Source: Escherichia phage PECP14. From it: a DNA stretch of 64,000 bases. Within the stretch, counting starts at the first letter, position 1, and every line of letters starts with the position of its first letter. The DNA lies in sequence record OQ870555.1, one strand, 5' to 3'. The position numbers were made by a program, and so were the translations under genes. Shown here in pieces: positions 34,713 through 45,393 of this stretch. Under the pieces are notes generated by a model. It had not been told where the DNA came from. It saw nothing but the letters and a program-made list of their open reading frames with translations, and ran no database searches.

Positions 34713-34713
34713 T

Positions 34714-35467: not shown

Positions 35468-35497
35468 ATATTTATAAATTTGAGAGAGGAATCAAAC

Positions 35498-35802: not shown

Positions 35803-35831
35803 TTGCTTAATGCCGAAATTTTCTGTATAAT
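35803..35831 (+). promoter_or_regulatory. early promoter cassette preceding tRNA-Ser
   Basis: TTGCTT-17-TATAAT. Confidence 0.55.
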
Positions 35832-35845: not shown

Positions 35846-35939
35846 GGAAGATTAACCCTAAAGGTAAGGGAGCTGTTTGCTAAACAGCCAGTAGCTGTGG
35901 AGACACGGTGTGCCAGTTCGAATCTGGCATCTTCCTCCA
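35846..35939 (+). tRNA. tRNA-Ser(GCT)
   Basis: acceptor GGAAGAT/ATCTTCC; AC loop TTGCTAA; long variable arm; follows promoter. Confidence 0.7.
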
Positions 35940-35944
35940 AATTT

Positions 35945-36022
35945 GGTTCTCAAGCTCATTTGGTATGAGCCGTCGCCTCATAAGCGAAAGGTAGGTAGGT
36001 TCGAATCCTCCGGGAGCCACCA
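35945..36022 (+). tRNA. tRNA-Met/Ile2(CAT)
   Basis: D-stem GCTC/GAGC; AC loop CTCATAA; T-loop TTCGAAT; CCA encoded. Confidence 0.55.
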
Positions 36023-36039
36023 ATTAACTAGGAGACTAT

Positions 36040-36225
36040 ATGTCTAGATTCTATGAAATGAAGAAAGCATTAGAAGAATGTCGGTGTAAGGATTGTCATG
36101 GTGGTGGTAGGCAGGATGATGCAGAACCTGGGGATATTTTCTGTAGAGAATGGGAATGTCCTACATGTAAAGGTACTGGTATCAACCCTGAATATGCAAT
36201 TTGTCTAGACATTGAGCGAGGCTAA
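36040..36225 (+). CDS. small Cys-rich (zinc-ribbon-like) protein
   Basis: CRCKDC...CREWECPTC. Confidence 0.4.
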   Translation: MSRFYEMKKALEECRCKDCHGGGRQDDAEPGDIFCREWECPTCKGTGINPEYAICLDIERG

Positions 36226-36565
36226 GATGGATATTTTTACTACTCCGGCAATAAACCTTTTAGGTGTTGGCTTGTTCCAAGCTACGGTGTATCGTACTGA
36301 TGATTCTACTGATGTGGTAACGTTCATCGTACCTGAGTTCTTCCTAGAAAAGTTCTTTGAAGAGTTTGAGCAGTTCCGTGAAGAACACAATGCTCATTCC
36401 GATATGGAAGATCTAGCAGCTATGTTCCCTGTGGTTTACGGCTATATCTTTGAAGGTAATGGCCTAGATCTTAATAAATCTGAACTCGTTGAACTTAATT
36501 GGGGCATCAATTTTGAAGTTGGCTCTCCATTCCCTCGATATTTCCAGGGTTTAGAGATTCGCTAA
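36212..36565 (+). CDS. hypothetical protein
   Basis: ORF. Confidence 0.45.
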   Translation: MSEAKMDIFTTPAINLLGVGLFQATVYRTDDSTDVVTFIVPEFFLEKFFEEFEQFREEHNAHSDMEDLAAMFPVVYGYIFEGNGLDLNKSELVELNWGINFEVGSPFPRYFQGLEIR

Positions 36566-36573
36566 GATTACAT

Positions 36574-36650
36574 GGGGGTGTAATCGAATTGGCATAGGTA
36601 CTGGACTTAAAATTCAGGTTTTGTGGGTTCGAATCCCACCACCCCTACCA
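36574..36650 (+). tRNA. tRNA, anticodon TAA (isotype uncertain)
   Basis: acceptor GGGGGTG/CACCCCT; T-arm GTGGG-TTCGAAT-CCCAC; AC loop CTTAAAA with short variable loop. Confidence 0.5.
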
Positions 36651-36665
36651 AATTAAGGAAATAAA

Positions 36666-36788
36666 ATGAAAGCTATTAAGAAAGCACTACGTAAATTTAT
36701 GTACTGTCGTTTTCATAGCATCAAGACTTCAACTAATGGTACGACTTATGATCGCTATGATCCTAAGTTTGGCTTACATTCTAAATAA
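36666..36788 (+). CDS. small hypothetical protein
   Basis: 40-codon ORF with AAGGAAA SD after a tRNA. Confidence 0.3.
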   Translation: MKAIKKALRKFMYCRFHSIKTSTNGTTYDRYDPKFGLHSK

Positions 36789-36801
36789 CTGGAGATAATA
36801 A

Positions 36802-37008
36802 ATGGCTAATCCTGAAATTACTGCACAGCGCTTTATGCTGAAAGGTATTATTGCTGAAGCAGGCATGACAGAAGAAGTTGCAGATTTTCAAAAGCAGTTC
36901 CTAAATATTCTCACTCAAGCCAAAGAGCTAGGAGAGAAAGAACATGGCGCGGCTATTATGGCAATCACATTGGTTGGGCTTGATCTGGCAGAAGAATCAG
37001 GAGTTTAA
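36802..37008 (+). CDS. hypothetical protein
   Basis: ORF. Confidence 0.4.
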   Translation: MANPEITAQRFMLKGIIAEAGMTEEVADFQKQFLNILTQAKELGEKEHGAAIMAITLVGLDLAEESGV

Positions 37009-37038
37009 CTCCTCCAAGCAGAAATTTTAAAAATGTAC

Positions 37039-37068
37039 TTGCTTTTTACTTAAGATTTCTGCTATAAT
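37039..37068 (+). promoter_or_regulatory. early promoter cassette
   Basis: TTGCTT-18-TATAAT. Confidence 0.5.
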
Positions 37069-37098
37069 AGTTATATAAATTGATGAAGGAGTTAACGA

Positions 37099-37374
37099 AT
37101 GTCAAAACGTGTTACTGCAACTGGTGTTGAAAGTGCTGTTTGTAAATCCTGGGGTGGCTGGGAAGGTGAGATTGAATGGCTTTATTTCTACGATGTAGAA
37201 CTTCTGCCGGAAGTCAAAGCTAAATGTGTGGAAGCTGGTATGGCTCCTGATGCAAAGGCTGATATCGAAATCACCATGACTAAGCTAGAAGGTCGTGTAA
37301 TTACGCTCAATGATGATTATGAAGAAGTGTTCGAGCTTCCATTCAAACTGAGTGTCACCCCTAGCTTCGAGTAA
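37099..37374 (+). CDS. hypothetical protein
   Basis: promoter cassette + AAGGAG SD. Confidence 0.45.
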   Translation: MSKRVTATGVESAVCKSWGGWEGEIEWLYFYDVELLPEVKAKCVEAGMAPDAKADIEITMTKLEGRVITLNDDYEEVFELPFKLSVTPSFE

Positions 37375-37410
37375 CTGATATAGCACTGAGCAAGTTCTTT
37401 AAAATTTGAC

Positions 37411-37439
37411 TTGCTCAGTCCTTCAAAACTTGATATAAT
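37411..37439 (+). promoter_or_regulatory. early promoter preceding tRNA cluster
   Basis: TTGACTTGCTC / TATAAT. Confidence 0.5.
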
Positions 37440-37503
37440 AGTTATCTAATTTGGAAAACATATTTAAAAGTGTTTAAACTAGTATTTGAATATTTCTAAA
37501 TAT

Positions 37504-37594
37504 GTTGGATTAGTATCGTAGAGGTAGCGAAGCAGACTGTAAATCTGCCGACTCGGAAGGGTCTCGGGTGGTTCGACTCCATCATCCAACACCA
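37504..37594 (+). tRNA. tRNA-Tyr(GTA)
   Basis: AC arm GCAGA-CTGTAAA-TCTGC; long variable arm. Confidence 0.6.
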
Positions 37595-37601
37595 AATTTA
37601 A

Positions 37602-37678
37602 GTCCTGTTAGACAAACTGGTAAAGTCACTACCCTTTCAAGGTAGGATTTGCGGGTTCGATCCCCGCACAGGACGCCA
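37602..37678 (+). tRNA. tRNA-Glu(TTC)
   Basis: acceptor GTCCTGT/ACAGGAC; AC loop CTTTCAA; T-arm GCGGG-TTCGATC-CCCGC. Confidence 0.7.
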
Positions 37679-37687
37679 AATTCTGCA

Positions 37688-37763
37688 TTCCTAGAGTGTT
37701 ACTGGACAGCATGTCGGTCTCCAAAACCGTACGGTCTAGGTTCGAGTCCTAGTAGGTTTGCCA
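37688..37763 (+). tRNA. tRNA-like, anticodon CCA (Trp?), non-canonical acceptor
   Basis: AC arm TCGGT-CTCCAAA-ACCGT and T-arm CTAGG-TTCGAGT-CCTAG are good but acceptor stem does not pair. Confidence 0.35.
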
Positions 37764-37769
37764 ATATTT

Positions 37770-37844
37770 GCACCTTTAGCTGAGATGGATTAGCGCTTGC
37801 CTGAAGAGCTTGAGAGGTTGGATCGTTACCAACGGGGTGCACCA
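37770..37844 (+). tRNA. tRNA-Phe(GAA)
   Basis: acceptor GCACCTT/GGGGTGC; AC loop CTGAAGA; T-arm GTTGG-ATCGTTA-CCAAC (atypical loop). Confidence 0.5.
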
Positions 37845-37846
37845 AT

Positions 37847-38134
37847 TTGAAGGAGATGCTGATGCATCCTGAAAACTTCTTTATTTACTGTGCGGATAAG
37901 TCACTGAAACGCAGAATTAACAAAGTCTATCATTATCGTGCTAGTCAACAGCCTTATGTTTATGCTTTTGATGGAGAAACCATTCCACTAGAGCAGTTGG
38001 CTTGTGATTACATGGTATTGAAGAACTTTGATGAGACAAAGATCTCAAGCGTTCATAATCGACAGAACCCATTAACGTGGAAGTATAAGAAGAAAAAGAA
38101 AGGCATCATATTTCTGAAAAATGTAGTTGCTTAA
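37847..38134 (+). CDS. hypothetical protein
   Basis: ORF after tRNA cluster. Confidence 0.4.
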   Translation: MKEMLMHPENFFIYCADKSLKRRINKVYHYRASQQPYVYAFDGETIPLEQLACDYMVLKNFDETKISSVHNRQNPLTWKYKKKKKGIIFLKNVVA

Positions 38135-38155
38135 CCGCTTAAAGTTCTGTATAAT
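38127..38155 (+). promoter_or_regulatory. early promoter cassette
   Basis: TTGCTT-17-TATAAT. Confidence 0.5.
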
Positions 38156-38184
38156 TATTACATAAATTGAACTGGAGAAGCAAC

Positions 38185-38409
38185 ATGACAGAACAAGAAT
38201 TGAAAGAACGTAAGCTGGTAATGCTTCGCTTACTAAACATTTTCTCTGGTATGGATGGTGGTATTGACTTCGTTAATCTACGTTGCTTTGTAGAAGAAGC
38301 AGAAGGTGAGGCTATCACTAGGATTCTTAAACATATGGGTTTGTTATTAGATGTTGCTAATGTGGCTACTCAATATAAGCTCGAAGATTTACCGGAGCGT
38401 GTTAAATGA
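38185..38409 (+). CDS. hypothetical protein
   Basis: promoter cassette + GGAGA SD. Confidence 0.4.
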   Translation: MTEQELKERKLVMLRLLNIFSGMDGGIDFVNLRCFVEEAEGEAITRILKHMGLLLDVANVATQYKLEDLPERVK

Positions 38410-38597
38410 AAATGTTAGTTAAATTTAAGTGTTGTGGTTCTGAACATATTTTCACTCGTTATAGAGAGTTTAAGATGTGTGAGTGTGGTAAGTCAGGCTA
38501 TGATGCTGGAGATGGCTATTATGCTAGATCTATAGGACATTATAAAGATCTAGAGTTTACTAATCTCGAAAAGCAAGATAAATCGACCGTTGGCTGA
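38406..38597 (+). CDS. small Cys-containing protein
   Basis: ORF overlapping previous stop. Confidence 0.4.
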   Translation: MKMLVKFKCCGSEHIFTRYREFKMCECGKSGYDAGDGYYARSIGHYKDLEFTNLEKQDKSTVG

Positions 38598-38659
38598 ATG
38601 GCTTAGGCGGAGGCCTGCAAAACCTCCTTATGTGAGTTCGAATCTCATGCGGTCGTCCA
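38584..38659 (+). tRNA. tRNA-Cys(GCA)
   Basis: acceptor CGACCGT/GCGGTCG; AC loop CTGCAAA; T-loop TTCGAAT. Confidence 0.6.
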
Positions 38660-38666
38660 AATTTTA

Positions 38667-38749
38667 GGGTCGTTAGCCAAGCGGTTTGGCGGTGGACTGT
38701 TAATCCATGTCGAAAGACAACGTAGGTTCGAATCCTACACGGCCCGCCA
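38667..38749 (+). tRNA. tRNA-Asn(GTT), extended variable region
   Basis: acceptor GGGTCGT/ACGGCCC; AC arm GTGGA-CTGTTAA-TCCAT; T-arm GTAGG-TTCGAAT-CCTAC. Confidence 0.55.
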
Positions 38750-38852
38750 TATTCTGTGTAGAGTTAAGTAAACCGGTAGCCAACCAGCTATCATTACTGA
38801 TATCGAATTCAGTCACAGATACCATTTTTCATTAACAACTGAGGAAATAGAT

Positions 38853-39038
38853 ATGACAACTCGTGCAATTGCTCGACTAGAAGCTGATCGTGATAATCTG
38901 ATTAATAATATTAAGGTTCGTGGTAATATTATTAAGGCTCTGAAAGCTGAACTTCTTGAAGAACTTCAAGGTCAAGTAGAGCGTCGTGAAGCTCTAAAAG
39001 AGGTTGAGGAAGCTATCGAAAAACTCAAAACTGAGTAA
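38853..39038 (+). CDS. small coiled-coil protein
   Basis: ORF with GAGGAAA SD. Confidence 0.4.
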   Translation: MTTRAIARLEADRDNLINNIKVRGNIIKALKAELLEELQGQVERREALKEVEEAIEKLKTE

Positions 39039-39047
39039 ATAAATTAT

Positions 39048-39124
39048 GCGATCGGGGCTGGCTTGGTAATGGTACTCCCCTGTCACGGGAGAGAATGTGG
39101 GTTCGAATCCCATCGGTCGCGCCA
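39048..39124 (+). tRNA. tRNA-Asp(GTC)
   Basis: AC arm CTCCC-CTGTCAC-GGGAG; T-arm GTGGG-TTCGAAT-CCCAT. Confidence 0.7.
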
Positions 39125-39138
39125 ATTTAGGCTATAGT

Positions 39139-39330
39139 ATGACACGCAAATATTTAGTTATTAAAGGTGAACATGCAGGACAAACTGTATACTCATTGAA
39201 ATTTCATGATTATGGTTTAGCCTCAGATGATACTCGATATACTGGAATAGAGCATACAAGTGTAACATTAGACGAAACAGGTGATTATCCTAGTTTTACT
39301 ATTCCTAAAGATTTCTTAAAAGAGATTTAA
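39139..39330 (+). CDS. hypothetical protein
   Basis: start moved downstream of tRNA-Asp. Confidence 0.4.
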   Translation: MTRKYLVIKGEHAGQTVYSLKFHDYGLASDDTRYTGIEHTSVTLDETGDYPSFTIPKDFLKEI

Positions 39331-39331
39331 T

Positions 39332-39408
39332 GCTTCCATAGCTCAACTGGTTAGAGCTACCGCCTCTTAAGCGGAGGGTTGAAGGTTCAAGTCCTTCTGG
39401 GAGTACCA
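39332..39408 (+). tRNA. tRNA-Lys(CTT)
   Basis: D-stem GCTC/GAGC; AC loop CTCTTAA; T-arm GAAGG-TTCAAGT-CCTTC. Confidence 0.6.
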
Positions 39409-39611
39409 AACAAATAGAGTAAAGGCTACAGTAGGTGCACCCTTACGGACTGCTACACCGGACTCTATTCATTAACAAACATTCTAGCGTGGTGGAGAGG
39501 GGACACCAGCTTGCCGAGGGTAGAAGCTCGTTCGATTCGAGTGAAAGAATGGTTCTCGTAAATCCGCACAAGTGATAGCAGGTTCAAGTCCTGCCTAGAT
39601 TGACTTATTAT
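39409..39611 (+). other. degenerate tRNA-like elements
   Basis: two T-arm-like hairpins (CTCG-TTCGATT-CGAG; GCAGG-TTCAAGT-CCTGC) with no complete cloverleaf. Confidence 0.3.
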
Positions 39612-39685
39612 GCGTTCGTAGTTAAAAGGTATAATTTTTGGTTGCCAACCAGAAGTTGAGGGTTCGATTCCCTCCGACCGCACCA
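39612..39685 (+). tRNA. tRNA-Gly(GCC)
   Basis: AC arm TTTGG-TTGCCAA-CCAGA; T-arm GAGGG-TTCGATT-CCCTC. Confidence 0.6.
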
Positions 39686-39933
39686 AATTTAGGTTTCTGC
39701 TTCCTAGAGAACGAACTCCTAGATAAACAAGGTGATGAGTTTCCGGCCGGTTCTAGTCGCTGAAAATCCTCCCGACCAGGTAGGTGTAAGTAAACGAAAG
39801 TTTACTTATTAAGTAAGTCCGACACATCGGCGGGTGTGTTCTAGTACTTAAAGAAGGTCTAGCAAACTTTCTCGCTAGCATGAGTTGATAGCTCGGTGAC
39901 TTACCTAATAAGTAAATTTATTAAAAAATGTAG

Positions 39934-39962
39934 TTGCTATTTAGCTTAATTCTCTGTATAAT
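39934..39962 (+). promoter_or_regulatory. early promoter preceding tRNA-Pro/Met cluster
   Basis: TTGCTA-17-TATAAT. Confidence 0.5.
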
Positions 39963-39994
39963 ATATTTTATAAAGTGAGTTAACAAAGAATATT

Positions 39995-40072
39995 CTCCGT
40001 GTAGCTCAGTTTGGCCAGAGCGTTTCGTTTGGGGCGATAGGGTCGGGGGTTCAAATCCTCCCACGGAGACCA
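39995..40072 (+). tRNA. tRNA-Pro(TGG)
   Basis: acceptor CTCCGTG/CACGGAG; D-stem GCTC/GAGC; AC loop TTTGGGG. Confidence 0.7.
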
Positions 40073-40078
40073 AACAAT

Positions 40079-40156
40079 TGCGGGTTAGATCTCTGGTAGA
40101 GATCGCTAGTCTCATAAGCTAGAAAGAGGTAGGTTCGATTCCTGCACCCGCTTCCA
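40079..40156 (+). tRNA. tRNA-Met(CAT), possibly initiator (1:72 mismatch)
   Basis: D-stem GATC/GATC; AC arm CTAGT-CTCATAA-GCTAG; T-arm GTAGG-TTCGATT-CCTGC. Confidence 0.55.
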
Positions 40157-40177
40157 ATTCAATAGAAGGATTTCGAA

Positions 40178-40342
40178 ATGAAATTATTTCGCTTAAAAGT
40201 AAGTGATCTACGTTCTAGTAAAGATCGTAAGAAGTATCTATTAGCCCATTACGGTAAAGATAAAAATGAAGTAATGGCGGAATTTGGTATTAATCATCCT
40301 TACTTGAAAGTCTACTCTATTAAAGAAGTATACATGTACTAA
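40178..40342 (+). CDS. small hypothetical protein
   Basis: 54-codon ORF between tRNAs. Confidence 0.3.
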   Translation: MKLFRLKVSDLRSSKDRKKYLLAHYGKDKNEVMAEFGINHPYLKVYSIKEVYMY

Positions 40343-40344
40343 AT

Positions 40345-40423
40345 AGATCGCTAGCTCAATTGGTTTAGCAGCACCCGGCTTTTAACCGGAAGGTTCTGGG
40401 TTCGAGTCCCAGGCGGTCTACCA
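40345..40423 (+). tRNA. tRNA-Lys(TTT)
   Basis: acceptor AGATCGC/GCGGTCT; AC loop CTTTTAA; T-arm CTGGG-TTCGAGT-CCCAG. Confidence 0.65.
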
Positions 40424-40440
40424 ATTTAAAGGAATTTGTT

Positions 40441-40758
40441 ATGAATATTAACAAAGTTCTAGAAACAATATCAGAAATGTCTGGTAGAGCTGGAAAACGC
40501 TTTACTGAACTATGTATTAAAAATCAAAAAGTACCAGAACATCAATGTCATTATTGTCGAGATTGTGAACAATACCATGAAATGTGTATGGTTGAAGATT
40601 GGGTCTGGAATCAGATAAGAAAAGAACAACCCAAAGATATTGTTCTATGTTTTACTTGTATGGAACGACGTTTAGGACGTAAAATTACTCTTAAAGATCT
40701 TAAACATGTTCCCTGTAACGCTCCTTACTTCATTGGCTTTAGAATGGAGAGATTTTAA
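40441..40758 (+). CDS. Cys/His-rich protein, possible HNH-type nuclease
   Basis: CHYCRDCEQYHEMC...CFTCMERR. Confidence 0.35.
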   Translation: MNINKVLETISEMSGRAGKRFTELCIKNQKVPEHQCHYCRDCEQYHEMCMVEDWVWNQIRKEQPKDIVLCFTCMERRLGRKITLKDLKHVPCNAPYFIGFRMERF

Positions 40759-40891
40759 TGACTATCTGGTTTTACTTAATGAAGCAGAAAATAAAAGATC
40801 CCTATGTATTCTCTGCCGATTTTACAATAGGTATGTTTATAGCAGGTTTCTGTGAATTTGTAGTTGAAGCCTACATTATAGGAAGTCTTTT

Positions 40892-40965
40892 GCTCGGTTA
40901 GTTTAATGGGAGAACCCCGTCTTTACACGGCGGTTGCGATAGTTCGATTCTATCACCGAGTACCA
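40892..40965 (+). tRNA. tRNA-Val(TAC)
   Basis: AC arm CCGTC-TTTACAC-GGCGG; T-arm GATAG-TTCGATT-CTATC. Confidence 0.65.
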
Positions 40966-40990
40966 ATTAACTCAAAATAAGGAATTGCAA

Positions 40991-41344
40991 ATGCAATTAT
41001 CAAGCAAGGTTCAAGGCTATTTCGGACATGTAACAATGGAGTTCGCTATCTCTAAAGGTTGGGACTTCGAACAAGATTTAGCTGAGTTCTACAAAGATAT
41101 TGATCTGAACGTACCGTACATGGGACTCTCAACTGGTCAAGAGATCACAGAAGCCGACGTGTTCAAGGCAAGTCAAGGTGAGGTAACACCTAGTTTTGCC
41201 GAGTTCTGGTTAGGTATCACACTGAAAGAAGATGCACCGGATAGTGGAGTACTAATGACTAGTATGCACTCTGGAAGCTCTGATTACCTTTTCGTTAGTG
41301 ACGTTAAGGAAATACAAGAAATCTGCAAAAATGTACTTGCTTGA
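40991..41344 (+). CDS. hypothetical protein
   Basis: ORF after tRNA-Val. Confidence 0.45.
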   Translation: MQLSSKVQGYFGHVTMEFAISKGWDFEQDLAEFYKDIDLNVPYMGLSTGQEITEADVFKASQGEVTPSFAEFWLGITLKEDAPDSGVLMTSMHSGSSDYLFVSDVKEIQEICKNVLA

Positions 41345-41365
41345 TGCTTAATTTCTTGTTATAAT
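41337..41365 (+). promoter_or_regulatory. early promoter driving a non-coding stretch
   Basis: TTGCTT-17-TATAAT; next ORF starts 360 bp downstream. Confidence 0.5.
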
Positions 41366-41725
41366 ATTTATATAAATTGATGTGAAAATAGCTGCCTAGA
41401 TATTAGGTGTATGACGTCTACACTAGCAGAGCTACCGAAAAAAGAGATCCTCAGGATAAACGCCGTAGCAAAATTAGTCTGATATCCATCAATTTAGTTC
41501 ACTAAGGTATTAGCTCGACCTAGGACTGGCTGCCAAAAAGCACGGTTGCAATTAGACCCATAATGGCGGGGGATACTTTGCAAGAAGTTCTAGATTAGTC
41601 CACTAGATTCAGCGGCAACTGAATAGTGTATCGGGTTTGTGGAGAGCGGTTATCCTCTACTGGCTAATGTCTGAGGGTAATACGCACACCGAGCTAATAG
41701 CCTTAGTAAACTAGAAGGAATATCT
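41366..41725 (+). ncRNA. candidate promoter-driven non-coding RNA
   Basis: 360 bp with no ORF after the promoter at 41337-41365; GC-rich. Confidence 0.3.
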
Positions 41726-41989
41726 ATGTTTGATCTTAAAGATATGGCTAAGAAACTAATGTCGCAACGTTATCAACAAAGAACCCTCCATAAACGAGTT
41801 TCCGATATGAAGAAACGTTGCAATAATGCTAAGTATTATAATAGTCTTAATAAACTATCTGATATAGATCTTGCTAAAACTGAAGCAATATATAATCACT
41901 TAGTAGTAGAATCTGATATAGTGAATAAAGATATTGCTAGGCTAGAAGCTCAGATTGTAGCAACTGTTCTCGATATGTATAGAGAATAA
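41726..41989 (+). CDS. hypothetical protein
   Basis: ORF. Confidence 0.45.
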   Translation: MFDLKDMAKKLMSQRYQQRTLHKRVSDMKKRCNNAKYYNSLNKLSDIDLAKTEAIYNHLVVESDIVNKDIARLEAQIVATVLDMYRE

Positions 41990-41998
41990 ATAAATTTT

Positions 41999-42077
41999 GG
42001 GGAATGGGTCTGCATGGAGTGGACACCTCGCTTGCACCGAGGACATCAGAACGGTTCGATTCCGTTATTCTCCACCA
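41999..42077 (+). tRNA. tRNA-Ala(TGC)
   Basis: AC arm CCTCG-CTTGCAC-CGAGG; T-arm AACGG-TTCGATT-CCGTT. Confidence 0.6.
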
Positions 42078-42083
42078 AAATTC

Positions 42084-42159
42084 GGGGTCATAGGTTATTT
42101 GGTTAAACTTACTGCCTTGCAAGCAGTGGAACTCAGTTCAATTCTGAGTGACTCCACCA
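42084..42159 (+). tRNA. tRNA, anticodon TGC (second Ala-type)
   Basis: AC arm ACTGC-CTTGCAA-GCAGT; T-arm CTCAG-TTCAATT-CTGAG. Confidence 0.55.
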
Positions 42160-42178
42160 AACAAATTAAGGAAATAAT

Positions 42179-42397
42179 ATGGTATTCTTAGCAGCCTCTG
42201 TAGTTCTTGCAGCTTTAGCACTAGCTATCTATTTTAGAACTATTAAAGATTTAGCTAAAGAAAAGAAAACTTTCTTTACTGATTATTCTTGGGGCGCTCC
42301 ATATACCGTCCGCTTTATCAGCTTAGAAGCTATGCTGATAATGGTATTCAGTGGTATAGGTTCCGTTGTTACAGGGTTACTATTTATTTCTAACTAA
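42179..42397 (+). CDS. small membrane protein
   Basis: two hydrophobic helices. Confidence 0.45.
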   Translation: MVFLAASVVLAALALAIYFRTIKDLAKEKKTFFTDYSWGAPYTVRFISLEAMLIMVFSGIGSVVTGLLFISN

Positions 42398-42404
42398 ATA
42401 AAAT

Positions 42405-42485
42405 GGGGATGTGGCGAAATTGGCAGACGCGCTAGATTTAGGTTCTAGTCTTCGGGTGTGGGTTCGAGTCCCTCCATCCCTACCA
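42405..42485 (+). tRNA. tRNA-Leu(TAG)
   Basis: AC arm CTAGA-TTTAGGT-TCTAG; long variable arm. Confidence 0.6.
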
Positions 42486-42659
42486 AACATTGGATTAACT
42501 CATGATGAAAACTCCTATAACTGATATCTGGTTAGCTGTTAATACATTAACTAAAGAGTATGTGTTTATAGAGTATGGTCAGAGGTATGACCAAAAGATG
42601 TATAATCTCATACTTCCAGTATCCGCTAATGAAGTTTATGATTTAATCCTGAGATCTAC

Positions 42660-42750
42660 GGAAGAGCAAATCGATTAGGTGACGAAAACCACTTGGAAAG
42701 TGGCTGACTGGTAAAACGGCTTGAGAGTTCGAATCTCTCTTCTTCCGCCA
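42660..42750 (+). tRNA. tRNA-Ser(GGA)
   Basis: AC loop TTGGAAA; long variable arm; T-arm GAGAG-TTCGAAT-CTCTC. Confidence 0.55.
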
Positions 42751-42757
42751 AACAACT

Positions 42758-42847
42758 GGAAGGTAGGACATAGTGGTATGTAACAGGTCTTGAAAACCTG
42801 CCCGCTGTAGCGATATGGTGATGGTTCGACTCCATTACCTTCCTCCA
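42758..42847 (+). tRNA. tRNA-Ser(TGA)
   Basis: AC arm CAGGT-CTTGAAA-ACCTG; long variable arm; T-loop TTCGACT. Confidence 0.65.
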
Positions 42848-42865
42848 ACTAATAAGGAAAACCTT

Positions 42866-43069
42866 ATGAAACACATTGTTAAGTATACCGAAAGCGAACG
42901 TGGCTGGGGTGGTGAAATCTGGTATCGTCCATTTGACACCGAGGCCGAAGCCTTGATGGAAGTTAATGATGTAAATAAAGATCTACCTAAAGATCATGTG
43001 CCAACATACTACATCCAAGCTGAGTATATTGGTGTTAAGGATAAGGTTCCCGAAGGTTACAAGTTTTAA
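42866..43069 (+). CDS. hypothetical protein
   Basis: start after tRNA-Ser with AAGGAAA SD. Confidence 0.45.
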   Translation: MKHIVKYTESERGWGGEIWYRPFDTEAEALMEVNDVNKDLPKDHVPTYYIQAEYIGVKDKVPEGYKF

Positions 43070-43388
43070 ATAATTCTTGAAGTATGCCGGAATCGGTAGA
43101 CGGGGCTTCCTAAAGGGCGTAAGGGGAACATCCACTCCTCATAAGATACCCGAAAACGAGGCTGAGATAAATGGTCTATCTCGTGAAGGTTCAAGTCCTT
43201 CTGCTTCTTGATACATCAATGGCTCAAAGAGTAACGGTGCACCTTTCTAGAGAATTTCCTGGGCGAGAATCCAGGTGTAATCAACTAGTTGTTAGTGTGA
43301 TGAGTTTCGGAGAGCCGCCACAATTGAAGTCTTTAGAATGGGTATCGCCCTTTAGCCCCTCCGAAAGGGATAACTAGAGATTTCAATT

Positions 43389-43465
43389 GTGGCTATATCA
43401 TAATTGGTTAATGATCCTGATTGTGAATCAGGCCTATGTGGATTCGAATTCCACTAGCCACCCCA
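43389..43465 (+). tRNA. tRNA-His(GTG)
   Basis: AC arm CCTGA-TTGTGAA-TCAGG; T-arm GTGGA-TTCGAAT-TCCAC. Confidence 0.7.
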
Positions 43466-43471
43466 AATATT

Positions 43472-43546
43472 GCGTCCTTATTTCAATGGAAAGAATGTAA
43501 AGCTACGAACTTTACGATCGGGGTTCGATTCCCTGAGGATGCACCA
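43472..43546 (+). tRNA. tRNA-Arg(ACG)
   Basis: AC arm TAAAG-CTACGAA-CTTTA; T-loop TTCGATT. Confidence 0.65.
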
Positions 43547-43570
43547 ATTAACTTATATAGGAACTAAAAT

Positions 43571-43771
43571 ATGGCTGATTTCTGCAAAGAATGCTCTATC
43601 GATATGTGGGGCAAAGATACTGGTGATCTTTCTGGTCTGATTACAGAAGCCGAAGTTAAAGAAGGCTATGGTGCTGTTGTAATCTGTGAAGGTTGTGGTA
43701 TTATTCGTGTTGATCATAATGGTAAACGTCTAGAAGAACCAGATCCAATTGCCACGGTTCCTGTAGAATAA
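43571..43771 (+). CDS. small Cys-rich protein
   Basis: CKEC...CEGCG. Confidence 0.4.
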   Translation: MADFCKECSIDMWGKDTGDLSGLITEAEVKEGYGAVVICEGCGIIRVDHNGKRLEEPDPIATVPVE

Positions 43772-43778
43772 AAATTAT

Positions 43779-43854
43779 TGGGATGTAGATCAATTGGCAG
43801 ATCGTCGGCCTCTGACTCCGAAGGTTCCACGTTCGATCCGTGGCATCCCAGCCA
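43779..43854 (+). tRNA. tRNA-Gln(CTG)
   Basis: AC loop CTCTGAC; T-arm CCACG-TTCGATC-CGTGG. Confidence 0.65.
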
Positions 43855-43860
43855 AATACT

Positions 43861-43936
43861 TGGAGAGTAGTGTAACGGTTAGCACAACGGCCTTTGACTC
43901 CGTTAATGGTAGGTTCGATTCCTCCTTCTCCAGCCA
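43861..43936 (+). tRNA. tRNA-Gln(TTG)
   Basis: AC loop CTTTGAC; T-loop TTCGATT. Confidence 0.6.
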
Positions 43937-43942
43937 ATTTAT

Positions 43943-44017
43943 GCGTGATTAGTTCAGTGGCTAGAATAACTGGCTTCCAACCAGTAGACACGAGTTCGAC
44001 TCTCGTATCCCGCACCA
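43943..44017 (+). tRNA. tRNA-Gly(TCC)
   Basis: AC arm ACTGG-CTTCCAA-CCAGT; T-arm ACGAG-TTCGACT-CTCGT. Confidence 0.65.
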
Positions 44018-44033
44018 AATATAAGGAAACGTT

Positions 44034-44255
44034 ATGCACGTTTTTGAGTTTCGTAATAAAAACCCTAATAGACGAGTTTTAATTATTGGTGAAACATATC
44101 GAGCTTATGAGCAAGAAGATGGTTCGGTTTTATTAAATGATGAAAAGCAAGGCTATAGTTTTCATCCAGAAGAAACATATGAGGAATTTCGTACTAAGTT
44201 TCTTTTACCAGACTGGCTAGCAATAGCTGAGCAAAGAGAACCCGAAGATGGCTGA
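44034..44255 (+). CDS. hypothetical protein
   Basis: ORF. Confidence 0.45.
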   Translation: MHVFEFRNKNPNRRVLIIGETYRAYEQEDGSVLLNDEKQGYSFHPEETYEEFRTKFLLPDWLAIAEQREPEDG

Positions 44256-44422
44256 TAATCTAAAGCTAAAGGTAGATAAACAAATGAAGTGCGTTGAGGT
44301 TGAGTTGGGTGAAGAACGTTTAAAACTCTCCTTCGAATTCTTACAACAGTTGGCTATGACAGTAATGTCTGATAAGTCTCCTGTATTTGAAAAAGAAATT
44401 CCGTTGAAATAACGGGTTTATT

Positions 44423-44497
44423 GCTCCTAAAGCATTGCTGGCAATGCAGTTGCCTTGTAAGCATCTGAACCGGGTTCGATTCCTGGTGGGAGCACCA
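44423..44497 (+). tRNA. tRNA-Thr(TGT)
   Basis: D-stem GCAT/ATGC; AC loop CTTGTAA; T-loop TTCGATT. Confidence 0.65.
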
Positions 44498-44512
44498 AAT
44501 TTAAAAATTCAT

Positions 44513-44541
44513 TTGCCTTCTCTCTTATTTCTTGTTATAAT
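44513..44541 (+). promoter_or_regulatory. early promoter cassette
   Basis: TTGCCT-17-TATAAT. Confidence 0.5.
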
Positions 44542-44571
44542 ATTTATATAAATTAATGAGAGGGAAGGCAA

Positions 44572-44865
44572 ATGAAACGTTATCTTTCTGTCGTATTCCA
44601 AACGGGTGGTCAACGCTACACTTACGAATTTCCTGAGTCTTGGAAAATCAAAGAGGGTGATCAAGTTGTTGTGCTAACACCTCGTGAAGGCTTCAAAGTA
44701 GTAACGGTTAAACAAGTATTTCCAAAAGATCACGAACCATCTAAGTCTATTAACTATAAGATGATTCATGGTCTGGTACGAAAAGTACCTAGAACAGAAG
44801 TCGAAGTAGATAAAACTGGAGAAGCTAAATACCAGTATACCTCTTACTTAGACGAAATGATGTAA
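44572..44865 (+). CDS. hypothetical protein
   Basis: promoter cassette + GAGGGAAGG SD. Confidence 0.5.
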   Translation: MKRYLSVVFQTGGQRYTYEFPESWKIKEGDQVVVLTPREGFKVVTVKQVFPKDHEPSKSINYKMIHGLVRKVPRTEVEVDKTGEAKYQYTSYLDEMM

Positions 44866-44866
44866 T

Positions 44867-44942
44867 GCTCCGATAGTTCAAACGGTTAGAACAGGCGACC
44901 GATAATCATCAAATCTTGGTTCGATCCCAAGTCGGAGTACCA
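44867..44942 (+). tRNA. tRNA-Ile(GAT)
   Basis: D-stem GTTC/GAAC; AC loop CCGATAA; T-arm CTTGG-TTCGATC-CCAAG. Confidence 0.55.
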
Positions 44943-44948
44943 AATTAT

Positions 44949-45021
44949 AGTTAGTTGGCAGAGTGGTTATGCACCTCCTTCATACGGAGTGACTACAGTG
45001 GTTCAAATCCACTACTAACTA
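44949..45021 (+). tRNA. tRNA-Met/Ile2(CAT), CCA not encoded
   Basis: acceptor AGTTAGT/ACTAACT; AC loop TTCATAC; T-arm AGTGG-TTCAAAT-CCACT. Confidence 0.55.
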
Positions 45022-45393
45022 CTAAACAGAGGATCAGGTCATTGTACCAGATCCTGCTGAGAAGAGAGTCCACATTCTATAAATGCCCGGGCGTGACAGC
45101 AGGAAGTAGACTGCAACTCCATGCTATCCAGGAGTATAAATGTAGAAGCTAGGACTTTAGATAGACATTGTCTTAGCGTGAGCAATCACGTAGTTGCAAC
45201 AGACCTGGAAGATCGCAACGTTAAAATCAAAGTTCCAGTGCTTATTTATCTAATCGAGACCATCAATCTCACCGGAATGCTAGCACCCCAACAGTAGCTA
45301 GTGATTAGATAATAAGCAAGCCTGCCTTCCAGTTTTTATCTTGCTTCTGGGTTAACAAAAAGCTGAGCCAAATTCTAACATCAGGGAGATCTA
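45022..45393 (+). ncRNA. candidate non-coding RNA downstream of tRNA cluster
   Basis: 370 bp ORF-poor GC-rich stretch between the last tRNA and the grcA-like gene. Confidence 0.25.

What the first reader, a model, noticed from the sequence alone, without database searches (positions are those of the whole stretch)
35846..45021. About 30 tRNA genes in 9 kb, with three CAT and two TGC anticodons
The array is interleaved with small ORFs and promoter cassettes. It includes three CAT-anticodon tRNAs (35945, 40079, 44949; likely elongator Met, initiator and lysidine-Ile), two adjacent TGC tRNAs (41999, 42084), and pairs for Gln, Gly, Lys and Arg, plus three Ser. The codons served broadly match the AT-rich codon usage of the phage genes. 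All folds were done by hand, so isotypes are provisional.
Basis: partly seen in the sequence, partly recalled or inferred. Interest (0 to 1): 0.45.

Follow-up and report, generated by a model that had tools for sequence, protein, structure and literature searches.

The report
T5-like phage tRNA gene cluster
This is the well-known tRNA-rich early region of a T5-like (Epseptimavirus) phage, with 29 tRNA genes in 9.2 kb plus one upstream, interleaved with strong promoters, tiny genes and a few tRNA-like RNAs; it is real, but ordinary for this phage family and already annotated in near-identical genomes.

Summary
ARAGORN finds 27 tRNA genes in 35846-45022 at default settings, and 29 at 90% threshold, which adds Phe-GAA and Ser-GGA. 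Arg-TCT lies upstream at 30382. Rfam agrees.

The promoter cassettes are real: the T5-type motif occurs 31 times in the window against 1.5 expected.

The window is 97% identical to Epseptimavirus phages (NG_S8, 3-29, Sw2), which carry the same anticodon set in the same order. It is syntenic with the curated tRNA region of phage T5.

By orthology and identity elements:
- 35945 is tRNA-Ile2 (lysidine type).
- 40079 is the initiator, identical to T5 tRNA-fMet.
- 44949 is elongator Met.

The two Ala-TGC genes are divergent types (59% identity), not a recent duplication.

The isoacceptors the phage carries read codons enriched in phage genes. The ones it lacks read depleted codons (p = 0.002, a post hoc test).

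Published T5 work shows that such tRNAs also rescue infection from the tRNA-cleaving defences PARIS and retron-Eco7.

Verdict: already known, low interest. Several tRNAs have conserved non-canonical features that are minor leads.

The parts
30382..30456 (+). tRNA-Arg(TCT), upstream outlier of the set
   Evidence: ARAGORN; Rfam 49.3 bits; 99% identical to T5 tRNA-Arg
35846..35939 (+). tRNA-Ser(GCT), long variable arm
   Evidence: 48.4 bits; starts about 6-8 nt after the predicted transcription start of promoter 35803
35945..36022 (+). tRNA-Ile2(CAT), lysidine type
   Evidence: 40 bits; 86% to T5 tRNAI2(CAU) and 92% to the IME260 homolog
36574..36650 (+). tRNA-Leu(TAA), 77 nt, short variable loop
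   Evidence: (57.4 bits)
37504..37594 (+). tRNA-Tyr(GTA)
   Evidence: 32.6 bits; anticodon stem-loop identical to E. coli tyrT
37602..37678 (+). tRNA-Glu(TTC)
   Evidence: 61.1 bits
37687..37763 (+). tRNA-Trp(CCA) with U2.U71 and U3.U70 mismatches
   Evidence: (36.3 bits)
37770..37844 (+). tRNA-Phe(GAA), atypical T-loop AUCGUUA
   Evidence: Rfam 33.4 bits; ARAGORN only at -ps90; first 50 nt identical to T5 tRNA-Phe; covariation
38584..38659 (+). tRNA-Cys(GCA)
   Evidence: 40.7 bits
38667..38749 (+). tRNA-Asn(GTT) with long variable arm
   Evidence: (59 bits)
39048..39124 (+). tRNA-Asp(GTC)
   Evidence: 46.8 bits
39332..39408 (+). tRNA-Lys(CTT)
   Evidence: 62.8 bits
39612..39685 (+). tRNA-Gly(GCC)
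   Evidence: 61.1 bits
39995..40072 (+). tRNA-Pro(TGG)
   Evidence: 54.4 bits
40079..40156 (+). initiator tRNA-fMet(CAT)
   Evidence: 78/78 identical to T5 tRNAfM; U1xU72, A11:U24
40345..40423 (+). tRNA-Lys(TTT)
   Evidence: 54.3 bits; anticodon stem differs from E. coli lysT at most positions
40892..40965 (+). tRNA-Val(TAC)
   Evidence: 57.8 bits
41999..42077 (+). tRNA-Ala(TGC) type 1 (G3.U70, G8, 7-nt variable loop)
   Evidence: ARAGORN; Rfam 36.3 bits; 5 compensatory pairs against Sw2 and IME260
42084..42159 (+). tRNA-Ala(TGC) type 2 (G3.U70)
   Evidence: 59.6 bits; 59% identical to type 1
42405..42485 (+). tRNA-Leu(TAG), shortened variable arm
   Evidence: (53.5 bits)
42660..42750 (+). tRNA-Ser(GGA), irregular D-arm connector
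   Evidence: ARAGORN -ps90; homolog of T5 tRNAS2(GGA); 8 compensatory pairs
42758..42847 (+). tRNA-Ser(TGA)
   Evidence: ARAGORN; 89% to T5 tRNAS1
43389..43465 (+). tRNA-His(GTG)
   Evidence: 59.9 bits; 100% identical to T5
43472..43546 (+). tRNA-Arg(ACG)
   Evidence: 55 bits
43779..43854 (+). tRNA-Gln(CTG)
   Evidence: 56.4 bits
43861..43936 (+). tRNA-Gln(TTG)
   Evidence: 50 bits
43943..44017 (+). tRNA-Gly(TCC)
   Evidence: 65.5 bits
44423..44497 (+). tRNA-Thr(TGT)
   Evidence: 51 bits
44867..44942 (+). tRNA-Ile(GAT) with C33
   Evidence: (53.7 bits)
44949..45022 (+). elongator tRNA-Met(CAT); 3' CCA not encoded (ends ...ACTAA)
   Evidence: 52.5 bits; 99% to T5 tRNA-Met
35439..35467 (+). T5-type early promoter (-35 TTGCTT, 17 nt, TGTATAAT)
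35803..35831 (+). T5-type promoter driving Ser-Ile2 and downstream ORFs
   Evidence: same position as T5 P15b
37039..37068 (+). T5-type promoter (18-nt spacer)
37411..37439 (+). T5-type promoter driving Tyr-Glu-Trp-Phe
   Evidence: same position as T5 P14a
38127..38155 (+). T5-type promoter
39934..39962 (+). T5-type promoter driving Pro-fMet
   Evidence: same position as T5 P13a
41337..41365 (+). T5-type promoter
   Evidence: same position as T5 P13b
44513..44541 (+). T5-type promoter after tRNA-Thr
   Evidence: same position as T5 P11
29748..30381 (+). pieces homologous to T5 stable RNA 'RNAX', directly upstream of Arg(TCT)
   Evidence: blastn 79-88% in four pieces
38752..38824 (+). homolog of T5 'RNA3' (tRNA-like, ends ACCA)
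   Evidence: 96% over 73 nt; fold z = -2.7
39480..39604 (+). homolog of T5 'RNA2' (tRNA-like stable RNA, has a T-arm)
   Evidence: 90% over 125 nt
39818..39869 (+). partial homolog of T5 'RNAIV'
   Evidence: 79% over 53 nt
41508..41639 (+). homolog of T5 'RNA2H'
   Evidence: 79% over 132 nt
43076..43220 (+). homolog of T5 'RNA1' (tRNA-like, with T-arm GAAGGUUCAAGUCCUUC)
   Evidence: 81% over 145 nt
43221..43320 (+). homolog of T5 'RNAI' (both ends conserved, ends GCCGCCA)
43321..43388 (+). 15-bp hairpin at the position of T5 'RNAIII'
   Evidence: fold z = -3.8; no blast similarity to T5 RNAIII
35480..35794 (+). small ORF, phrog_6894 (unknown function)
36040..36225 (+). small ORF, phrog_6060 ('anti-termination protein Q-like')
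36212..36565 (+). small ORF, phrog_9447
36666..36788 (+). small ORF, phrog_5441
36802..37008 (+). small ORF, phrog_5153
37099..37374 (+). small ORF, phrog_4551
37847..38134 (+). small ORF, phrog_5876
38167..38409 (+). small ORF, phrog_8408
38406..38597 (+). small ORF, phrog_7042 (3' end overlaps tRNA-Cys)
38853..39038 (+). small ORF, phrog_5473
39097..39330 (+). ORF fragment matching only the N-terminal 69 of 172 positions of phrog_7900
40178..40342 (+). small ORF, phrog_6221
40441..40758 (+). small ORF, phrog_6053
40758..40901 (+). small ORF, phrog_13931 (3' end overlaps tRNA-Val)
40985..41344 (+). small ORF, phrog_7572
41726..41989 (+). small ORF without a PHROG match; DNA conserved in related Salmonella phages
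42179..42397 (+). small ORF, phrog_15739
42502..42678 (+). small ORF, phrog_11405 (3' end overlaps tRNA-Ser(GGA))
42815..43069 (+). small ORF, phrog_14410 (match starts at residue 18)
43571..43771 (+). small ORF, phrog_2210
44034..44255 (+). small ORF, phrog_5598
44248..44412 (+). small ORF, phrog_5919
44572..44865 (+). small ORF, phrog_4760

Best explanation
This is the tRNA-rich early region of a T5-like siphophage (Demerecviridae, genus Epseptimavirus).

Contents: 29 tRNA genes in 9.2 kb, plus tRNA-Arg(UCU) 5.4 kb upstream. Together they cover all 20 amino acids, with a separate initiator and a lysidine-type tRNA-Ile2.

Transcription and processing (inferred):
- At least eight strong T5-type sigma-70 promoters (TTGCTT, 17-18 nt, TGnTATAAT) would drive transcription by host RNA polymerase.
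- The transcripts would be mixed precursors carrying runs of 2-4 tRNAs 5-8 nt apart, small ORFs, and tRNA-like stable RNAs known from T5.
- Host RNase P and 3'-end nucleases would release the tRNAs. 29 of the 30 already encode CCA.
- The Met tRNA does not encode CCA and would need the host CCA-adding enzyme.

Function:
- In every four-codon box the phage keeps the U34 isoacceptor. It also keeps the rare-codon readers Arg-UCU, Ile-CAU, Leu-UAA and Leu-UAG.
- This gives a near-complete decoder set weighted toward the A/U-ending codons that phage genes prefer.
- The pool would support phage translation in two ways. It tops up tRNAs that are scarce in the host. It also replaces host tRNAs that are cleaved or depleted during infection, as shown experimentally in T5 for tRNA-Lys (PARIS) and tRNA-Tyr (retron-Eco7).

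Shown here: the genes, their order, homology, covariation, promoter motifs and codon statistics. Inferred: expression, processing, charging, modification and the defence-evasion role in this particular phage.
For: Gene calls.

Identity of the region:
- 97% identity over 92-94% of the region to Epseptimavirus genomes that annotate the same tRNAs.
- Sw2 has the same anticodons in the same order.
- Synteny with the curated T5 record includes the pairs Ser3-Ile2(CAU), Pro-fMet, Ile1-Met, Trp-Phe and Ser2-Ser1, and the annotated promoters P11 to P15.

CAT identities.

The doubtful genes are functional types. Compensatory pairs number 5 for Ala1, 4 for Phe and 8 for Ser-GGA.

Promoters: a ~59-nt repeat family, and 31 motif matches against 1.48 expected, with strand following gene orientation.

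Spacing and CCA ends.

Codon usage:
- A-ending codons cognate to the phage U34 tRNAs are enriched 1.3- to 6.9-fold compared with E. coli K-12 ORFs.
- Among amino acids with a choice of isoacceptor, the median phage/host codon ratio is 1.98 for isoacceptors present and 0.43 for those absent (one-sided Mann-Whitney p = 0.002).
- 84% of phage codons are read under strict wobble, and 96.6% if U34 also reads U.

Literature:
- T5 tRNA-Lys resists AriB and rescues infection from PARIS (PMC11464382).
- T5-like tRNA-Tyr, expressed from a very strong phage promoter, rescues infection from retron-Eco7 (PMC11555353).
- The window's tRNA-Tyr sits about 58 nt downstream of such a promoter.
Against: - There are no expression, charging or modification data for this phage.
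- T5 mutants with large deletions in the tRNA region are viable on laboratory hosts, so the array is conditionally useful, not essential (PMC11464382).
- The isoacceptor-choice test was designed after a first, cruder test was not significant (p = 0.40). It uses E. coli K-12 long ORFs as a stand-in for the unknown host.
- Several tRNAs are non-canonical: Trp has U.U pairs, Ile has C33, Phe has an odd T-loop, and the initiator has only one of the three G-C pairs.
- The T5 record notes that many homologs could not be converted into suppressors, so some genes may be weak or inactive.
- The window's tRNA-Lys(UUU) and tRNA-Tyr are different alleles from those tested in T5. Their resistance to nucleases is not established.
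Confidence: 0.87

Rival explanations
1. Codon compensation only. The array exists solely to supply tRNAs for codons that are common in the 40% G+C phage genes but rare in the host, and has no role in evading host defences.
For: - Isoacceptors present read phage-enriched codons and isoacceptors absent read depleted ones.
- Examples: AGA is enriched 6.9-fold, CTA 5.9-fold, GGA 2.5-fold, ACA 2.5-fold and ATA 2.0-fold.
Against: - The set also includes tRNAs for codons that are not enriched, or that the host reads abundantly: GGC 0.34, AGC 0.48, AAA 0.80, CAG 0.74, and all the two-codon boxes.
- Experiments in T5 show specific tRNAs acting against PARIS and retron-Eco7 (PMC11464382, PMC11555353).
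- The anticodon stem of the window's tRNA-Lys(UUU) differs from the host's at nearly every position, which codon supply alone does not require.
Confidence: 0.3
2. Counter-defence and host independence only. The array is a replacement tRNA pool selected because host tRNAs are cleaved or depleted during infection. The match to codon usage is a by-product of keeping the minimal U34-based decoder set.
For: - The set covers all 20 amino acids plus an initiator, and reads 84-97% of phage codons.
- U34 isoacceptors are kept in every four-codon box.
- Many anticodon stem-loops differ from the host's.
- The T5 experiments support this role.
Against: - The window's tRNA-Tyr anticodon stem-loop is identical to that of E. 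coli tyrT, so sequence escape is not general.
- Redundant pairs such as Gln-CUG/UUG, Lys-CUU/UUU, Gly-GCC/UCC and two Ala-UGC are more than a minimal set needs.
- The rare-codon readers match the strong phage codon biases.
Confidence: 0.35
3. Largely passive baggage. The tRNA genes persist as a recombination-prone mosaic, in T5 associated with homing endonucleases, with many members decaying into pseudogenes and tRNA-like remnants and giving little benefit to the phage.
For: - The array is a mosaic. Some genes are 100% identical to T5 (His, fMet) while their neighbours have no detectable similarity to the T5 isoacceptor.
- T5 carries HNH endonuclease genes inside its array.
- The window holds tRNA-like RNAs with T-arm remnants and a truncated ORF.
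Against: - Compensatory substitutions keep the cloverleaf even in the weakest-scoring genes.
- The same 30-gene set is kept across many Epseptimavirus isolates.
- No intact endonuclease ORF lies in this array. The largest ORF is 119 aa.
- Functional roles have been shown in T5.
Confidence: 0.05

Closest known systems
tRNA gene region of Escherichia phage T5 (NC_005859, curated annotation; Tequintavirus)
   Same: - Same genomic neighbourhood and gene order, with the same adjacent pairs: Ser-GCU/Ile2-CAU, Tyr-Glu-Trp-Phe, Cys/Asn, Pro/fMet, Ser-GGA/Ser-UGA, Gln/Gln/Gly and Ile-GAU/Met.
- Same early promoters at the same places.
- Homologs of the T5 stable RNAs 1, 2, 2H, 3, I, IV and X are present.
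- fMet and His are 100% identical, and Met and Arg-UCU are 99% identical.
   Different: - The window has five tRNA genes that T5 lacks: Leu-UAA, Lys-CUU, Gly-GCC, a second Ala-UGC and Arg-ACG.
- It has no intact HNH endonuclease genes inside the array.
- Many syntenic isoacceptors are unrelated alleles: Ser-GCU, Trp, Asn, Pro, Lys-UUU, Ala, Leu-UAG, Gln, Gly-UCC and Ile-GAU.
Epseptimavirus genomes such as Salmonella phage Sw2 (NC_048062), Salmonella phage 3-29 and E. coli phage NG_S8
   Same: - 96-97% nucleotide identity over 92-94% of the region.
- Sw2 has the same anticodons in the same order.
- 21 of the 30 tRNAs are 100% identical to Sw2 and most of the rest are 97-99% identical.
   Different: - Small indels: about 200 nt between Asp and Lys-CUU, and about 390 nt before Ala1, which is present in other relatives such as STK8t.
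- Lys-CUU, Ala1 and Ser-GGA are only 91-92% identical to Sw2.
- Sw2 does not annotate the Phe gene, although its sequence is identical.
Sugarlandvirus array (Klebsiella phage vB_Kpn_IME260, NC_041899)
   Same: - A large tRNA array with three CAT tRNAs of the same three types.
- The same unusual Ala1 type, C33 tRNA-Ile(GAU), U.U-mismatched tRNA-Trp and Lys-UUU allele.
   Different: Different gene order, 24 genes, a single Ala gene, and different intervening ORFs.
Phage T4 tRNA cluster (own knowledge, not tested here: 8 tRNA genes plus two small stable RNAs of unknown function)
   Same: Clustered tRNA genes are co-transcribed with small stable RNAs and processed by host enzymes. The classical interpretation is codon supplementation.
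   Different: It is far smaller and covers 8 amino acids rather than 20. T4 counters the anticodon nuclease PrrC by tRNA repair rather than by replacement (PMC10264068).

Membership tests
tRNA (Rfam RF00005 / ARAGORN cloverleaf) | Sequence and structure score at or above the curated gathering threshold (29 bits) | tested here: met
   27 of the 29 genes in the interval, plus Arg-TCT, score 32.6-65.5 bits. Ser-TGA and Ser-GGA are listed under the related tRNA-Sec model because of their long arms. Both are called by ARAGORN, Ser-GGA only at -ps90.
tRNA (Rfam RF00005 / ARAGORN cloverleaf) | Helices maintained by compensatory substitutions in relatives (tested for the doubtful members) | tested here: met
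   Ala1 has 5 compensated pairs, Phe 4 and Ser-GGA 8. Trp pairs 6:67 and 7:66 are compensated against IME260. Only 3-4 sequences were compared in each case.
tRNA (Rfam RF00005 / ARAGORN cloverleaf) | Universal nucleotides U8, U33 and the T54-A58 T-loop | tested here: inconclusive
   Most genes conform. Exceptions:
- Ile-GAT has C33.
- Ala1, Trp and Asp have G at the eighth position of the ARAGORN call.
- Phe has an A54/U58 T-loop.
The Ile C33 and Ala1 G8 exceptions recur in relatives of another genus, so they argue for variant tRNAs, not decay.
T5-type tRNA gene region of Demerecviridae | Synteny and nucleotide homology with the T5 and Epseptimavirus arrays, T5-type early promoters, and T5 stable-RNA homologs | tested here: met
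tRNA-Ile2 (CAU anticodon, lysidine-modified) - gene at 35945 | CAU anticodon with an A37-A38 loop; IleRS identity elements A73, U12-A23 and C29-G41 (E. coli rules recalled from the literature) | tested here: met
   The loop is CUCAUAA. A73, U12-A23 and C29-G41 are present, and C29-G41 is kept in the T5 and IME260 orthologs.
tRNA-Ile2 (CAU anticodon, lysidine-modified) - gene at 35945 | TilS acceptor-stem determinants C4-G69 and C5-G68 (E. coli rule recalled from the literature) | tested here: inconclusive
   It has U4-A69 and C5-G68, so one of the two. The other two CAT tRNAs have neither: Met has U4-A69/A5-U68 as in E. coli metT, and fMet has G4-C69/G5-C68.
tRNA-Ile2 (CAU anticodon, lysidine-modified) - gene at 35945 | C34 is actually converted to lysidine and the tRNA is charged with Ile | not testable with these tools
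   This needs mass spectrometry or in vitro TilS/IleRS assays. The assignment rests on orthology to T5 tRNAI2(CAU).
Bacterial initiator tRNA - gene at 40079 | Unpaired 1:72 position, G2-C71 and C3-G70, and A11:U24 | tested here: met
   U1xU72 (E. coli has C1xA72), G2-C71, C3-G70 and A11:U24 are all present. The gene is 78/78 identical to T5 tRNAfM.
Bacterial initiator tRNA - gene at 40079 | Three consecutive G-C pairs (29:41, 30:40, 31:39) in the anticodon stem | tested here: not met
   The stem is CUAGU/GCUAG. Only G30-C40 is a G-C pair, 29:41 is A-U and 31:39 is U.G. The initiator label is therefore by orthology and acceptor/D-stem features only.
Elongator tRNA-Met - gene at 44949 | CAU anticodon, A73, and an acceptor stem of the tRNA-Met type (U4-A69, A5-U68) | tested here: met
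   It is 99% identical to T5 tRNA-Met. The CCA end is not encoded.
tRNA-Ala - genes at 41999 and 42084 | G3.U70 wobble pair, the major AlaRS determinant (established knowledge) | tested here: met
   Both genes have G3.U70 and A73.

The most novel reading that the evidence does not exclude
Several tRNAs here depart from the canonical form in ways that recur in related phages:
- C33 in tRNA-Ile(GAU).
- U.U mismatches in the tRNA-Trp acceptor stem.
- A G8 tRNA-Ala kept beside a canonical one.
- A long-arm tRNA-Asn.
- Short-arm tRNA-Leu.
- An A54/U58 tRNA-Phe.

The most novel reading not excluded is that these are not drift. They would be selected disguises that keep the tRNAs usable by synthetases and ribosomes while hiding them from host tRNA-cleaving defence nucleases. 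The T5-type tRNA-like stable RNAs would act as decoys or inhibitors of such nucleases.
Probability: 0.2. Interest if true: 0.5.

Novelty: already known. Interest (0 to 1): 0.12.

Why it matters
As a discovery it matters little. T5-like phages have been known for decades to carry such arrays, and near-identical arrays are annotated in GenBank.

It is useful in three smaller ways:
- As a correction of the CAT isotype order.
- As a reminder that default tRNA finders miss two or three members, and miss all the T5-type stable RNAs, some of which relatives annotate as protein-coding genes.

The conserved non-canonical tRNAs could become interesting if they are linked to evasion of tRNA-targeting defences.

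Tried and rejected
1. Two TGC genes as a recent tandem duplication. Rejected. They are 59% identical, and Ala1 is orthologous to the single Ala gene of a Klebsiella Sugarlandvirus.

2. Phe, Ser-GGA and Ala1 as pseudogenes, because ARAGORN or Rfam missed them at default settings. Rejected on covariation and orthology to curated T5 genes.

3. Generic sigma-70 scan. There was no enrichment (33 found against 36 expected). The specific T5-type motif is strongly enriched.

4. First codon test, comparing all Watson-Crick-cognate codons with unserved codons. Not significant (p = 0.40), because two-codon boxes offer no choice of isoacceptor. It was replaced by the present-versus-absent isoacceptor test (p = 0.002), which is post hoc.

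5. ARAGORN at 80% threshold gave 12 extra calls on both strands with odd anticodons. These were treated as noise.

6. miRNA-like Rfam hits at 44498-44586 and the other sub-threshold Rfam hits. They fall on the A/T-rich promoter cassette or on tRNA antisense strands, and none reaches a gathering score.

7. The ~650-nt stretch before Ala1, including ORF 41726-41989 with no PHROG match. Checked for novelty and found 98-99% identical in several Salmonella phages.

8. No homology search of the big protein databases, structure prediction or metagenome scan was run. The region was fully explained by annotated relatives.

Full report

ARAGORN on the whole window finds 28 tRNA genes, all on the + strand. 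27 lie between 35846 and 45022, and tRNA-Arg(TCT) lies at 30382-30456.

Rfam's tRNA model independently reaches its gathering score for these. It adds a gene at 37770-37841 (33.4 bits) that ARAGORN missed. With laxer filters it also scores the first Ala gene at 36.3 bits. The two long-arm Ser genes appear under the related tRNA-Sec model, below its threshold.

By eye, the 37770 gene has anticodon GAA (Phe) and 42660-42750 has GGA (Ser). At 90% of its default threshold ARAGORN calls exactly these two and nothing else, giving 30 in all.

So the interval holds 29 tRNA genes, which is 2289 of 9180 bases. The Gln, Gly and Lys pairs and the three Ser genes are confirmed. Of the Arg pair, only ACG is inside the interval.

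**2. What is it?**

The 9.8 kb around the array is 96-97% identical over 92-94% of its length to E. coli phage NG_S8 and to Salmonella phages 3-29 and Sw2. Hundreds of other T5-like genomes also match. Sw2 belongs to Demerecviridae, genus Epseptimavirus, and annotates 28 tRNAs here. ARAGORN on the Sw2 locus gives the same anticodons in the same order.

The curated record of phage T5 shows the same architecture:
- The same adjacent pairs: Ser3(GCU)-Ile2(CAU), Tyr-Glu-Trp-Phe, Pro-fMet, Ser2(GGA)-Ser1(UGA), Gln-Gln-Gly and Ile1(GAU)-Met.
- Named early promoters between the tRNA groups.
- Small ORFs.
- A set of 'stable RNAs with unknown functions'.

A published genome report for a 96%-identical relative lists 27 tRNAs (PMC12887010). 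The feature is therefore a known one in a new isolate.

**3. Anatomy beyond the tRNAs**

*Promoters.* A ~59-nt repeat family has the form AAAAATGTAnTTGCTT, about 17 nt, then TGnTATAAT and an A/T-rich tail. Copies lie at 35429, 35793, 38117, 39924, 41327 and 44503, with related copies at 37029 and 37411.
- The core motif TTGC-N15-19-TATAAT occurs 31 times in the window against 1.48 expected. It is on the - strand up to 14.5 kb and on the + strand from 16.5 kb, following gene orientation.
- A generic sigma-70 scan was not enriched.
- The promoter at 35803-35831 would start transcription only a few bases before tRNA-Ser at 35846.
- The promoter at 37411-37439 lies about 58 nt before tRNA-Tyr.

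*tRNA grouping.* The tRNAs sit in runs with 5-8 nt spacers. 29 of the 30 encode the 3' CCA. Met at 44949 ends ...ACTAA instead.

*Stable-RNA homologs*:
- RNA3: 38752-38824, 96% identity.
- RNA2: 39480-39604, 90%.
- Part of RNAIV: 39818-39869.
- RNA2H: 41508-41639, 79%.
- RNA1: 43076-43220, 81%.
- RNAI: 43221-43320, with both ends conserved.
- Pieces of RNAX upstream of Arg-TCT.

Several of these have a terminal stem and a T-arm-like hairpin.

*Small ORFs.* 22 of the 23 tested within the array interval match PHROG families of unknown function. One is labelled anti-termination Q-like. One, at 39097-39330, matches only the N-terminal fragment of a 172-residue family. No ORF in the array exceeds 119 aa, so the HNH endonuclease genes found inside the T5 array are absent here.

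**4. The three CAT tRNAs**

- **40079** is 78/78 identical to T5 tRNA-fMet. It has an unpaired 1:72 position (U x U), G2-C71, C3-G70 and A11:U24. It has only one of the three anticodon-stem G-C pairs that define E. coli initiators.
- **35945** is 86% identical to T5 tRNAI2(CAU) and 92% to a homolog in Klebsiella phage IME260. It lies next to Ser-GCU, as in T5. It carries A73, U12-A23, C29-G41 and the CUCAUAA loop shared with E. coli ileX, and C5-G68 but U4-A69.
- **44949** is 99% identical to T5 tRNA-Met. It has U4-A69/A5-U68 as in E. coli metT, T29-A41 and C38.

The rules for TilS and IleRS recognition are recalled from the literature, not tested here. On this evidence 35945 is the lysidine-Ile candidate and 44949 the elongator Met. 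All three types recur in IME260, so they are three maintained functions.

**5. The two TGC tRNAs**

Both have G3.U70 and A73, so both should accept alanine. They are only 59% identical.

Ala1 (41999) is 91% identical to Sw2 Ala1 and 84% to the only Ala gene of IME260. Five base pairs changed on both sides with pairing kept. The pair is therefore two distinct alleles kept side by side, not a recent duplication and not a pseudogene.

**6. Codon usage**

The comparison used 60 long ORFs of the window and 81 long ORFs from 130 kb of E. coli K-12, as a proxy for the unknown enterobacterial host.
- Codons that pair exactly with the phage's U34 and rare-codon tRNAs are enriched in the phage: AGA 6.9-fold, CTA 5.9, GGA 2.5, ACA 2.5, GTA 2.4, CCA 2.2, ATA 2.0, TTA 2.0 and GCA 1.7.
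- A first global test was not significant (p = 0.40), because two-codon boxes offer no choice of isoacceptor.
- The test was then restricted to amino acids where E. coli has alternative isoacceptors (repertoire from established knowledge). The 13 the phage carries have a median phage/host ratio of 1.98. The 13 it lacks have 0.43 (one-sided p = 0.002). This test is post hoc.
- The set reads 84% of phage codons under strict wobble, and 96.6% if U34 also reads U as cmo5U does in E. coli. The remainder is only the C-ending family-box codons plus CGG, the rarest phage codon.

**7. Mechanism**

The sequence shows a near-complete decoder set under strong early promoters. The rest is inference.

Published work on T5 gives direct support for a second role:
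- T5 tRNA-Lys is not cut by the PARIS nuclease AriB and restores infection (PMC11464382).
- tRNA-Tyr of T5-like phages, driven by an exceptionally strong promoter, overcomes retron-Eco7. E. coli tRNA-Tyr under that promoter also works (PMC11555353).

In this window:
- The anticodon stem of tRNA-Lys(UUU) (CCCGG/CCGGA) differs from E. coli lysT (GTTGA/TCAAT) at nearly every position. It is also a different allele from T5's.
- The anticodon stem-loop of tRNA-Tyr is identical to that of E. coli tyrT. This fits the dosage mechanism proposed for Tyr.

T5 mutants lacking much of the array are viable, so the benefit is conditional. I conclude that codon supply and replacement of depleted host tRNAs both operate. 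Their relative weight cannot be settled from sequence.

**8. Non-canonical members**

Several tRNAs deviate from universal rules:
- Ile-GAU has C33, shared with Sw2 and IME260 but not with T5 or BF23. The window copy also has a C29xA41 mismatch.
- Trp has U2.U71 and U3.U70, conserved in IME260 with compensated neighbouring pairs.
- Asn has a long variable arm. The same type is found at about 79% identity in T4-like Klebsiella, Enterobacter and Shigella phages.
- Leu-UAA has a short variable loop, and Leu-UAG a miniature arm.
- Phe has an AUCGUUA T-loop with a compensated stem change relative to T5.
- Ala1 has G8.

The array is also a mosaic. Some genes are identical to T5, while their neighbours are unrelated alleles of the same isoacceptor. 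These are leads for the idea that phage tRNAs diverge to escape tRNA-targeting nucleases (PMC10264068). Nothing here tests that.

**9. Verdict**

The feature is the standard tRNA region of T5-like phages, already annotated and experimentally studied. Novelty: already known. Interest: low.

Noticed in passing
window 38752-38824, 39480-39604, 39818-39869, 41508-41639, 43076-43220, 43221-43320, 29748-30381: These are homologs of the 'stable RNAs with unknown functions' annotated in phage T5 (RNA3, RNA2, RNAIV, RNA2H, RNA1, RNAI, RNAX). Several are tRNA-like, with a terminal stem, a T-arm and in some a CCA end. No Rfam family matches them. Sw2 annotates short hypothetical CDSs in the corresponding stretch between Ser-UGA and His.
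   Followed up: partly
window 44867-44942: tRNA-Ile(GAT) has C at position 33 (loop CCGATAA) instead of the near-universal U33. Sw2 and Klebsiella phage IME260 share this, but T5 and BF23 do not. The window copy also has a C29xA41 mismatch where Sw2 has C-G.
   Followed up: partly
window 37687-37763: tRNA-Trp has two U.U mismatches (2:71 and 3:70) in the acceptor stem. They are conserved in IME260, while pairs 6:67 and 7:66 change in a compensated way. E. coli tRNA-Trp has G-C at these positions.
   Followed up: partly
window 38667-38749: tRNA-Asn(GTT) is 83 nt with a long variable arm (GUC-GAAA-GAC), a feature normally limited to Leu, Ser and Tyr in bacteria. The same type occurs at about 79% identity in T4-like Klebsiella, Enterobacter and Shigella phages.
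   Followed up: partly
window 36574-36650 and 42405-42485: The Leu tRNAs lack the usual long variable arm. Leu(TAA) is 77 nt with a short loop. Leu(TAG) is 81 nt with a C-UUCG-G mini-arm. T5, IME260 and E. coli leuW have full arms.
   Followed up: no
window 37770-37844: The T-arm of tRNA-Phe differs from T5 (GTTGG-ATCGTTA-CCAAC against GTTCG-TTCAATT-CGAAC). Positions 54 and 58 are swapped to A and U, and one stem pair is compensated. This is why ARAGORN misses the gene at default settings. The anticodon stem has two U.U mismatches in T5 as well.
   Followed up: partly
window 44949-45025: Elongator tRNA-Met is the only one of the 30 without an encoded CCA (it ends ...ACTAA, where T5 has ACCA). 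It would depend on the host CCA-adding enzyme.
   Followed up: no
whole window: The T5-type promoter motif TTGC-N15-19-TATAAT occurs 31 times against 1.5 expected. All copies up to 14.5 kb are on the - strand and all from 16.5 kb are on the + strand, matching a sign change of GC skew near 16-18 kb. This marks a divergent transcription switch point.
   Followed up: partly
window 31663-31693: A strong 12-bp G+C-rich hairpin followed by a T-run lies between convergent genes, at the place where T5 annotates an 'efficient bidirectional rho-independent terminator'.
   Followed up: no
window 43321-43388: A 15-bp perfect hairpin (z = -3.8) lies immediately upstream of tRNA-His, at the position of T5 RNAIII but without sequence similarity to it.
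   Followed up: no
window 39097-39330: This ORF matches only the first 69 of 172 positions of phrog_7900. It looks like a truncated gene remnant inside an insertion of about 200 nt, relative to Sw2, between tRNA-Asp and tRNA-Lys(CTT).
   Followed up: no
window 29068-29517 and 33606-35391: Flanking genes are a YqeY-like 'tRNA amidotransferase' ORF (phrog_1460) just upstream of Arg-TCT, and, by the Sw2 annotation, a NadR-like nicotinamide-nucleotide adenylyltransferase and a PnuC-like transporter just before the array.
   Followed up: no
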